Shown: positions 44,445 through 44,946 of the stretch, in pieces
Numbering within the stretch: position 1 is the first letter of the stretch
Layout: every line of letters begins with the position of its first letter
NCBI GenBank assembly: GCA_951406725.2
Contig: OX597817.1
Location: 49,228,001 to 49,292,000, forward strand
Source: Octopus vulgaris
Lineage: Eukaryota
Direction of reading: 5' to 3'
Length of the DNA stretch: 64,000 nucleotides
Translations under genes and position numbers: made by a program
The notes under the pieces: model-generated
What the model was told of the DNA's origin: nothing
The model's database searches: none
What the model saw: the letters and a program-made list of their open reading frames with translations, nothing else

Positions 44445-44660
44445 AAATAAATAAATATATATATATATATATATATATATATATATATATATATATATAT
44501 ATATATATATATATATATATATATATATATATATATATATATATATATATATATACCGGAGTAAACACATAAATGTGAAACAAGGTGGAAAAAAAGAGTA
44601 CTCAAATACCAGTGGTAGAGTAATATGCTTTATTTTAAGCAGCAGAAAATTCAACAAAAT

Positions 44661-44698
44661 CTGTTACTCTGAGTTTCTCGTTGCCGTTCATCAGACAG
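44661..44698 (-). ncRNA. Hammerhead ribozyme motif, family H6 (mirror copy)
   Basis: Exact reverse complement of 44722-44759. Confidence 0.8.
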
Positions 44699-44721
44699 TT
44701 TTTGCTAGAATCTAGCAAAAA

Positions 44722-44759
44722 CTGTCTGATGAACGGCAACGAGAAACTCAGAGTAACAG
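44722..44759 (+). ncRNA. Minimal hammerhead ribozyme motif, family H6 (canonical core)
   Basis: ctgt-CTGATGA-a-cg-gcaa-cg-a-GAAAC-tcaga-GTA-acag: helix I ctgt/acag, GNRA-capped mini helix II, near-palindromic helix III ACTC-A-GAGT. Confidence 0.8.
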
Positions 44760-44946
44760 ATTTTGTTGAATTTTCTGCTGCTTAAAATAAAGTATATATA
44801 TATATATATATATATATATATATATATATATATATATATATATATATATATATATATATATATATATATATATATGTATATATATTTATTTATTATATAT
44901 ATATATATATATGTGTGTGTGTGTGTGTGTGTGTGTGTATGTGTGT

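What the first reader, a model, noticed from the sequence alone, without database searches (positions are those of the whole stretch)
44556..44792. Second, unrelated perfect fold-back element with the same architecture
Seen: 82-bp perfect arms around a 1-nt loop, with a hammerhead (ctgt CTGATGA acggcaacga GAAAC tcaga GTA acag) starting 12 bp from the symmetry axis on both strands. One arm has a 72-bp extra terminus, and the whole is embedded in long (TA)n. The sequence is unrelated to the 12.3-kb element, yet the layout is the same: axis just upstream of the ribozyme, long and short arm, TA target. Inference: a shared integration mechanism produces these hairpins.
Basis: partly seen in the sequence, partly recalled or inferred. 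Interest (0 to 1): 0.75.

Follow-up and report, generated by a model that had tools for sequence, protein, structure and literature searches.

The report
Truncated fold-back Penelope retrotransposon insertion
This short hairpin-shaped piece of DNA is real, but it looks like one of very many cut-short copies left by a Penelope-type jumping gene, laid down in the inverted-copy-plus-tail pattern already known for that group.

Summary
Public short-read contigs from three organisms show a very abundant repeat family with two fixed 3' ends, both joined to (TA)n, and variable 5' ends. Other copies run on past this axis, and the 14 arm-to-arm joints examined are scattered; in 9 of 14 neither arm keeps a whole hammerhead. 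So a shared mechanism is supported, but 'axis just upstream of the ribozyme' is not a rule. The layout matches published Penelope-like element (PLE) insertions: 5'-truncated copy, adjacent head-to-head inverted copy, tail on one end, hammerhead, (TA)n target. Most likely route: target-primed reverse transcription from the tail end, early truncation, snap-back copying of the cDNA, then joining at an internal TA-like site. The autonomous RT/GIY-YIG parent was not found, so PLE membership rests on architecture. Small departures: tails of 72-88 nt in three families (30-40 bp in print) and a degenerate helix II. Ordinary, though useful as material for the open question of how PLE inversions form.

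The parts
44456..44555 (.). (TA)50, left half of the microsatellite target
44556..44627 (-). 72-nt tail: 3' extension present only on the long arm; its outer end is the family's fixed long 3' end
   Evidence: table 7: (TA)n loose ends before 44559 in 32, 26, 48 and 1 contigs of runs X2, X4, X5, X6
44623..44628 (-). Internal TA-like site at which the family's second (short) 3' end joins (TA)n
   Evidence: table 7: (TA)n loose ends before 44623 in 10, 33, 40 contigs of X2, X4, X5
44628..44709 (-). Long arm (82 nt), element sense on the minus strand
44661..44698 (-). Type I minimal hammerhead motif, minus-strand copy
44710..44711 (.). Head-to-head junction of the two 5'-truncated arms; centre base A44710
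   Evidence: table 7: loose ends behind 44711 in 11 (X4) and 25 (X5) contigs show the parent continues
44711..44792 (+). Short arm (82 nt), inverted copy without tail
44722..44759 (+). Type I minimal hammerhead motif: helix I 44722-25/44756-59 (extendable by 6 bp after a mismatch), core 44726-32, 2-bp helix II with a 4-nt loop, GAAA 44743-46, palindromic helix III 44746-54, predicted cut after A44755
   Evidence: structure assigned by hand; activity not tested
44793..44874 (.). (TA)41, right half of the target

Best explanation
A minimal, dead-on-arrival insertion of an endonuclease-positive Penelope-like element. Shown: a very abundant family with two fixed 3' ends joined to (TA)n, variable 5' ends, a hammerhead motif near the 3' end and frequent head-to-head inversions. 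Inferred steps: (1) a PLE protein (RT plus GIY-YIG endonuclease) nicks a (TA)n tract; (2) reverse transcription starts at the outer end of the tail and stops after about 155 nt; (3) the cDNA 3' end folds back and is extended on itself, giving an identical inverted arm; (4) this second strand stops at an internal TA-like site 72 nt before the first end and is joined to the other half of the (TA)n. The axis marks where this copy was truncated and is not set by the ribozyme. The ribozyme is a passenger here: a read-through RNA would fold as one long hairpin.
For:: 2883, 3321, 4216 and 300 contigs laid on 237 nt in 4 of 4 runs (three organisms); two (TA)n-joined ends at 44559 and 44623; parent continues behind 44711; of 14 arm-to-arm joints analysed, 9 leave no whole hammerhead on either arm, 5 leave one, arm offset -36 to +82 nt; 3 of 14 recur in two or three organisms; two other hammerhead families in the window with the same layout and different axes, plus a copy at 3275 with no inverted arm found. 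In 5 of 5 tail-bearing fold-backs examined in the window the short arm ends in AT-rich sequence running into TA repeats, at or beside an internal AT-rich site of the long arm. Snap-back fits 82/82 arm identity, including letters that are the minority among family copies (44636; table 3). Literature: inverted 5'-truncated copy, one-sided tail, (TA)n target (PMC8557442); palindromes at head-to-head junctions (PMC3846280); minimal hammerheads on opposite strands 100-700 bp apart (PMC4209133); two RT start sites delimiting the tail and AT-rich cleavage (PMC11167929).
Against: No RT/GIY-YIG parent was linked to this sequence: no genome is held, no PLE frame was seen in the window, and a protein search with the 45-residue frame found nothing. 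The tail is 72 nt, not 30-40 bp. Helix II has only 2 bp and lacks the G10.1-C11.1 pair reported as highly conserved; the hammerhead fold (-4.9 kcal/mol) is less stable than the best fold (-9.6). A 1-nt loop is hard to explain by simple snap-back priming. Skip joints could also be central deletions of longer palindromes. Four joints (44621>44717 and three in table 5c) appear to have the tail-bearing arm as the shorter one at the 5' end, which strict snap-back does not predict. Only 15 of 46 joints and 24 of 346 loose ends were shown.
Confidence: 0.85

Rival explanations
1. Same PLE origin, but the two arms come from two separate priming events: a dimeric PLE protein nicks both strands and reverse-transcribes from the two start sites, and the two truncated cDNAs are joined head to head.
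For: PAc cuts and extends both strands, uses two start sites and is predicted to be a dimer (PMC11167929). Fits the wide offsets between arm starts, offsets of either sign and extra letters at some joints (tables 5, 5c), and the 1-nt loop.
Against: Near-symmetric junctions in 2 of the 4 hammerhead-bearing tailed fold-backs tabulated (offsets 0 and 2 nt) are unlikely under independent truncation; arms are identical within a copy.
Confidence: 0.3
2. A non-autonomous fold-back element with a fixed or preferred axis that is mobilised as a unit by a PLE protein; the scattered joints are later deletions at the palindrome centre.
For: In the shallow run X6 a contig crossing nearly the same axis, 7 nt shorter, has depth 7.05 (tables 4, 8), which could mean several copies. 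Two X2 contigs cross the axis with 9 and 6 other letters. Non-autonomous PLE derivatives are known.
Against: Parent sequence continues past the axis in 11 and 25 contigs; each listed joint is held by only 1-2 contigs per run; families in the window show different axes among their own copies. The library type of X6 is not on record, so its depth cannot be scaled.
Confidence: 0.1
3. A MITE or fold-back DNA transposon that targets TA repeats.
For: Short, AT-rich, non-coding, inverted arms, TA flanks.
Against: The inverted repeats are not terminal on the long side; ends are asymmetric with two alternative 3' ends; 5' ends vary; hammerhead motif present.
Confidence: 0.03
4. The hairpin at this locus is an assembly or library artefact.
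For: Arms are perfect; none of the 32 pieces shown (10773 more not shown) spans the whole element or is a mismatch-free bridge of this junction (table 8).
Against: Run X1 holds 18 of 18 sampled words; 29 of 155 words are junction-specific, so P of sampling none is 0.019 if sampling is position-blind; X1 may be the source sample. Fold-back joints recur across organisms, and other fold-backs in the window have aged arms (121/128, 88/110).
Confidence: 0.03

Closest known systems
Complex insertions of canonical endonuclease-positive Penelope-like elements (Penelope/Poseidon, Neptune, Nematis, Hydra): pLTR, adjacent inverted 5'-truncated copy, one-sided tail (PMC8557442; PMC3846280)
   Same: Head-to-head inverted copy, palindrome at the junction, tail at one end only, hammerhead near the 3' end, strong 5' truncation, (TA)n target with no discernible target-site duplication.
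   Different: Only 155 nt of the element are present and no ORF; tail 72 nt (80-88 in two other families of the window) against 30-40 bp in print; clade not determined.
Minimal type I hammerheads of metazoan PLEs (PMC4209133)
   Same: Type I topology, 4-bp core helix I, palindromic helix III suited to dimer folding, pairs on opposite strands close together.
   Different: Helix II is 2 bp instead of 7-8 bp (Schistosoma families) and lacks G10.1-C11.1; the two motifs are only 23 nt apart.
Non-LTR retrozymes (10.64898/2026.07.22.740005, part 1 of 5 read)
   Same: Non-coding, type I hammerhead, PLE-derived.
   Different: Retrozymes are head-to-tail tandem arrays; this is a head-to-head inversion of dispersed, truncated copies.
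Naiad PLEs (PMC8557442)
   Same: (TA)n target, inverted structures, very high copy number in invertebrates.
   Different: Naiads lack canonical hammerheads (some keep only a core) and are reported as remnants in cephalopods.

Membership tests
EN+ Penelope-like element | ORF with telomerase-like RT and GIY-YIG endonuclease linked to this terminal repeat | tested here: inconclusive
   No genome held; the one RT frame of the 3 frames scanned (19784-21091) matches RVT_1 and looks LINE-type by recalled motifs; motif scan of six frames found no PLE remnant; protein search negative but weak.
EN+ Penelope-like element | Hammerhead motif within the pLTR near the 3' end | tested here: met
   degenerate helix II; no Rfam match.
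EN+ Penelope-like element | Inverted 5'-truncated copy adjacent to the 5' end (head to head) | tested here: met
EN+ Penelope-like element | Tail at one end only; two alternative 3' ends | tested here: met
   Two (TA)n-joined ends at 44559 and 44623 in three organisms; length 72 nt rather than 30-40.
EN+ Penelope-like element | Variable 5' truncation | tested here: met
   Scattered joints and parent continuing past the axis.
EN+ Penelope-like element | AT-rich or (TA)n target; short target-site duplication where visible | tested here: inconclusive
EN+ Penelope-like element | Partial tandem (direct pLTR) arrangement in full-length copies | not testable with these tools
   Needs the host assembly.
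Active hammerhead ribozyme | Self-cleavage at the GUA site, as monomer or dimer | not testable with these tools
   Only folding energies: hammerhead fold -4.9, best fold -9.6, helix III self-dimer -7.4, whole-element hairpin -148.3 kcal/mol.
MITE / fold-back DNA transposon | Terminal inverted repeats at both ends and fixed length | tested here: not met
   72-nt one-sided tail, two 3' ends, variable axis.
Non-LTR retrozyme | Head-to-tail tandem units each with a type I hammerhead | tested here: not met
   Single head-to-head pair; no second copy of the family in the window.

The most novel reading that the evidence does not exclude
In this lineage several unrelated PLE families use tails about twice the published length and end their second arm at an internal TA-like site, and a share of copies form near-perfect hairpins that may themselves be re-mobilised as fixed fold-back units. 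Thousands of such junctions would let one decide from genome data alone whether PLE inversions arise by cDNA snap-back or by two-sided priming, a question stated as open in PMC8557442.
Probability: 0.15. Interest if true: 0.45.

Novelty: new member of a known kind. Interest (0 to 1): 0.2.

Why it matters
Mostly as annotation: such copies can be mislabelled as MITEs or microRNA hairpins (they score on several Rfam microRNA models below the curated cut-offs), and they supply many perfect hairpins and hammerhead motifs to a TA-rich genome. The abundance of short junctions makes the family a convenient data set for the unresolved step of PLE biology, the formation of the inverted copy and the one-sided tail. 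It does not point to a new class of element.

Tried and rejected
No whole genome is held, so no genome-wide survey or empty-site test. Rfam: only tRNA at gathering score in the window; microRNA-like matches at E<=10 reflect the hairpin and are all below gathering score. Exact 22-nt pattern in metagenome contigs: 0 matches. A 45-residue frame starting at the ATG inside the hammerhead core has two stops; a search among longer proteins gave 1 candidate and no hit at E<=1, so the idea that the tail encodes the ORF start stays untested. The fall in summed depth from the 3' end toward the axis (both arms added: 1206k to 397k in X2, 1017k to 191k in X4, 2012k to 605k in X5) fits 5' truncation but is partly an edge effect and is no copy number, so it is not leaned on. 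Single-strand folds of the arm were no more stable than shuffles (z 0.01 to -0.37). My register for the 61.8-kb palindrome was off by one and its count there is void; one search is cited instead. Paper searches listed no paper whose title or abstract start describes this family; the host is octopus-like by recall only (SINE at 44947 and microsatellite load), not by any search. Repbase, Dfam and the supplements of PMC8557442, which hold PLE consensus sequences, were not seen and may already name the family.

Full report
Observation. The element lies at 44556-44792 between (TA)50 and (TA)41. Arms 44628-44709 and 44711-44792 are 82/82 complementary around A44710, and 44556-44627 is a 72-nt extension on the left arm only. 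Chance expectation for such arms is about 1e-40. It shares no blastn similarity with the 12.3-kb element and has no second copy in the window.

The ribozyme motif. Read on the plus strand, 44722-44759 can be drawn as a type I minimal hammerhead: helix I of 4 bp (plus 6 bp after a mismatch), the CUGAUGA core at 44726-32, a 2-bp helix II with a 4-nt loop, GAAA at 44743-46, a palindromic helix III and a GUA site at 44753-55. A descriptor of my own found 10 motifs in the window against 0-2 in 20 shuffles. Rfam did not recognise it. It departs from the published PLE motif in its very short helix II and the missing G10.1-C11.1 pair (PMC4209133, parts 1-2 of 4 read). The hammerhead fold scores -4.9 kcal/mol against -9.6 for the best fold, the helix III segment self-pairs at -7.4, and the whole element folds as one hairpin of -148.3. 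Activity is untested; in a read-through RNA the motif would be buried.

The family. No genome is held, so I used public runs. Twenty of 24 listed runs, from 10 studies and four coded organisms, hold at least half of the 18 sampled words. I laid four runs (X2 organism A, X4 organism B, X5 and X6 organism C, one sample): 2883, 3321, 4216 and 300 contigs fit the 237 nt. Of 346 loose ends 24 were shown. They include (TA)n joined before 44559 (32, 26, 48, 1 contigs) and before 44623 (10, 33, 40 contigs): two fixed 3' ends, one at the tip of the tail and one at its base. Loose ends behind 44711 (11 contigs in X4, 25 in X5) show that the parent goes on upstream of this axis, so the axis is a truncation point and the '1-nt loop' is a parent base.

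The axis test. Table 5 showed 15 of 46 joints; I left out the one opposite-strand joint and converted the other 14 to element coordinates. Arm starts range from 14 nt upstream to 73 nt downstream of core C3, and the offset between arms from -36 to +82 nt. Nine of 14 leave no whole hammerhead on either arm, five leave one. None has both whole, but the query cannot show junctions at or upstream of its own axis, so that zero is uninformative. Three of 14 recur in two or three organisms (44661>44764 in X2, X4, X5; 44665>44760 and 44651>44737 in X2, X4), which argues against library artefacts. The window agrees: arm starts relative to C3 are -17/-15 here, -27/-27 at 12.3 kb, -37/-9 at 16.4 kb, -35/+118 at 56.8 kb and about -174 to -219 at 19.3 kb; tails are 72, 80, 88 and 83 nt. 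A copy at 3275 has no inverted arm found, and the fold-back at 44345-44444 has no hammerhead.

Is this junction real? X1 holds 18 of 18 words; 29 of 155 distinct words are junction-specific, giving P = 0.019 of sampling none if sampling ignores position. Among the pieces shown, two X2 contigs cross the axis with 9 and 6 other letters and one X6 contig with a 7-nt gap; none is a perfect bridge. So the class is well supported and this locus moderately.

Mechanism. Shown: fixed 3' ends in (TA)n, variable 5' ends, head-to-head inversion, identical arms. Inferred: nicking of (TA)n by a PLE endonuclease, reverse transcription from the tail tip, early stop, snap-back extension, and joining at an internal TA-like site. 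In the five tailed fold-backs compared, the short arm ends at or beside an AT-rich site of the long arm, though in so AT-rich a genome this is weak. The main rival is two-sided priming by a dimeric protein; the 1-nt loop and the joints in which the tailed arm seems the shorter favour it, the near-symmetric junctions favour snap-back. Confidence in the PLE origin is about 0.85; between the two routes I lean about 60:40 to snap-back.

Comparison with what is known. PMC8557442 (passages) describes 5' truncation, an inverted 5'-truncated copy at the 5' end, a 30-40 bp tail on one end, hammerheads in pLTRs and (TA)n targets, and names the formation of inverted structures as unresolved. PMC3846280 (passages and Discussion) reports palindromes at head-to-head junctions and proposes self-priming. 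PMC4209133 reports minimal hammerheads on opposite strands 100-700 bp apart. PMC11167929 (parts 1-2 of 4) shows two RT start sites that delimit the tail, AT-rich cleavage of both strands, and that ribozyme mutants still insert in vitro. PMC13282606 (passages) lists 31 recently active Penelope-like families in Octopus vulgaris; that the window is from an octopus is my recall from its SINE and microsatellites, not a tool result. The element works like a PLE insertion. Membership is likely but the defining ORF was not reached. It fails the tests for a MITE and for a tandem retrozyme. Two earlier reports of this scan on shark-type genomes came to the same reading; they are unchecked notes and are not counted as support.

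Verdict. Real, correctly described, and explained by a known class. What remains of interest is the longer tail shared by three families and the use of the junction set to test how PLE inversions form. Interest 0.2; new member of a known kind.

Noticed in passing
window 12061-12463 and 56618-56947: Two fold-backs share their 3' 150 nt at 90% identity but carry different hammerhead helix II sequences; the 56.8-kb copy has the motif on the long arm only. A tail-only relative lies at about 44221-44269.
   Followed up: partly
window 16234-16600, 3275, 19190-19640: Third hammerhead family with a CCGAUGA core (C at position 4) and a 7-9 bp helix II; one fold-back, one copy without an inverted arm, and one whose inversion lies about 175-220 nt upstream of the motif.
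   Followed up: partly
window 44345-44444 and 49333-49372: Small fold-back (29-bp arms, 3-nt spacer, about 39-nt tail) in the same TA field just left of the finding, with no hammerhead; the tail alone recurs at 49.3 kb.
   Followed up: partly
window 14117-14401: Older fold-back (88/110 arm identity, 59-nt spacer) with a minimal hammerhead on one arm, not flanked by (TA)n.
   Followed up: no
window 61616-62037: Perfect 176-bp inverted duplication of low-complexity host-like DNA around a TA tract; real inversion or assembly artefact unknown. A 44-bp perfect inverted pair at 41201-41244/41563-41606 may be similar.
   Followed up: no
window 7437-8399: Element with about 276-bp inverted ends (89%) and transposase-like remnants, Tc1/mariner-like by recall.
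   Followed up: no
window 19784-21094: 436-codon open frame matching RVT_1, LINE-type by recalled motifs, directly after a hammerhead-family copy.
   Followed up: partly
window 13181-13252: Single tRNA-Gly(TCC) gene.
   Followed up: no
run X6, laid on window 44685-44745: A contig crossing nearly the same axis with 7 nt left out has depth 7.05 in a shallow run, possibly a junction shared by several loci.
   Followed up: no
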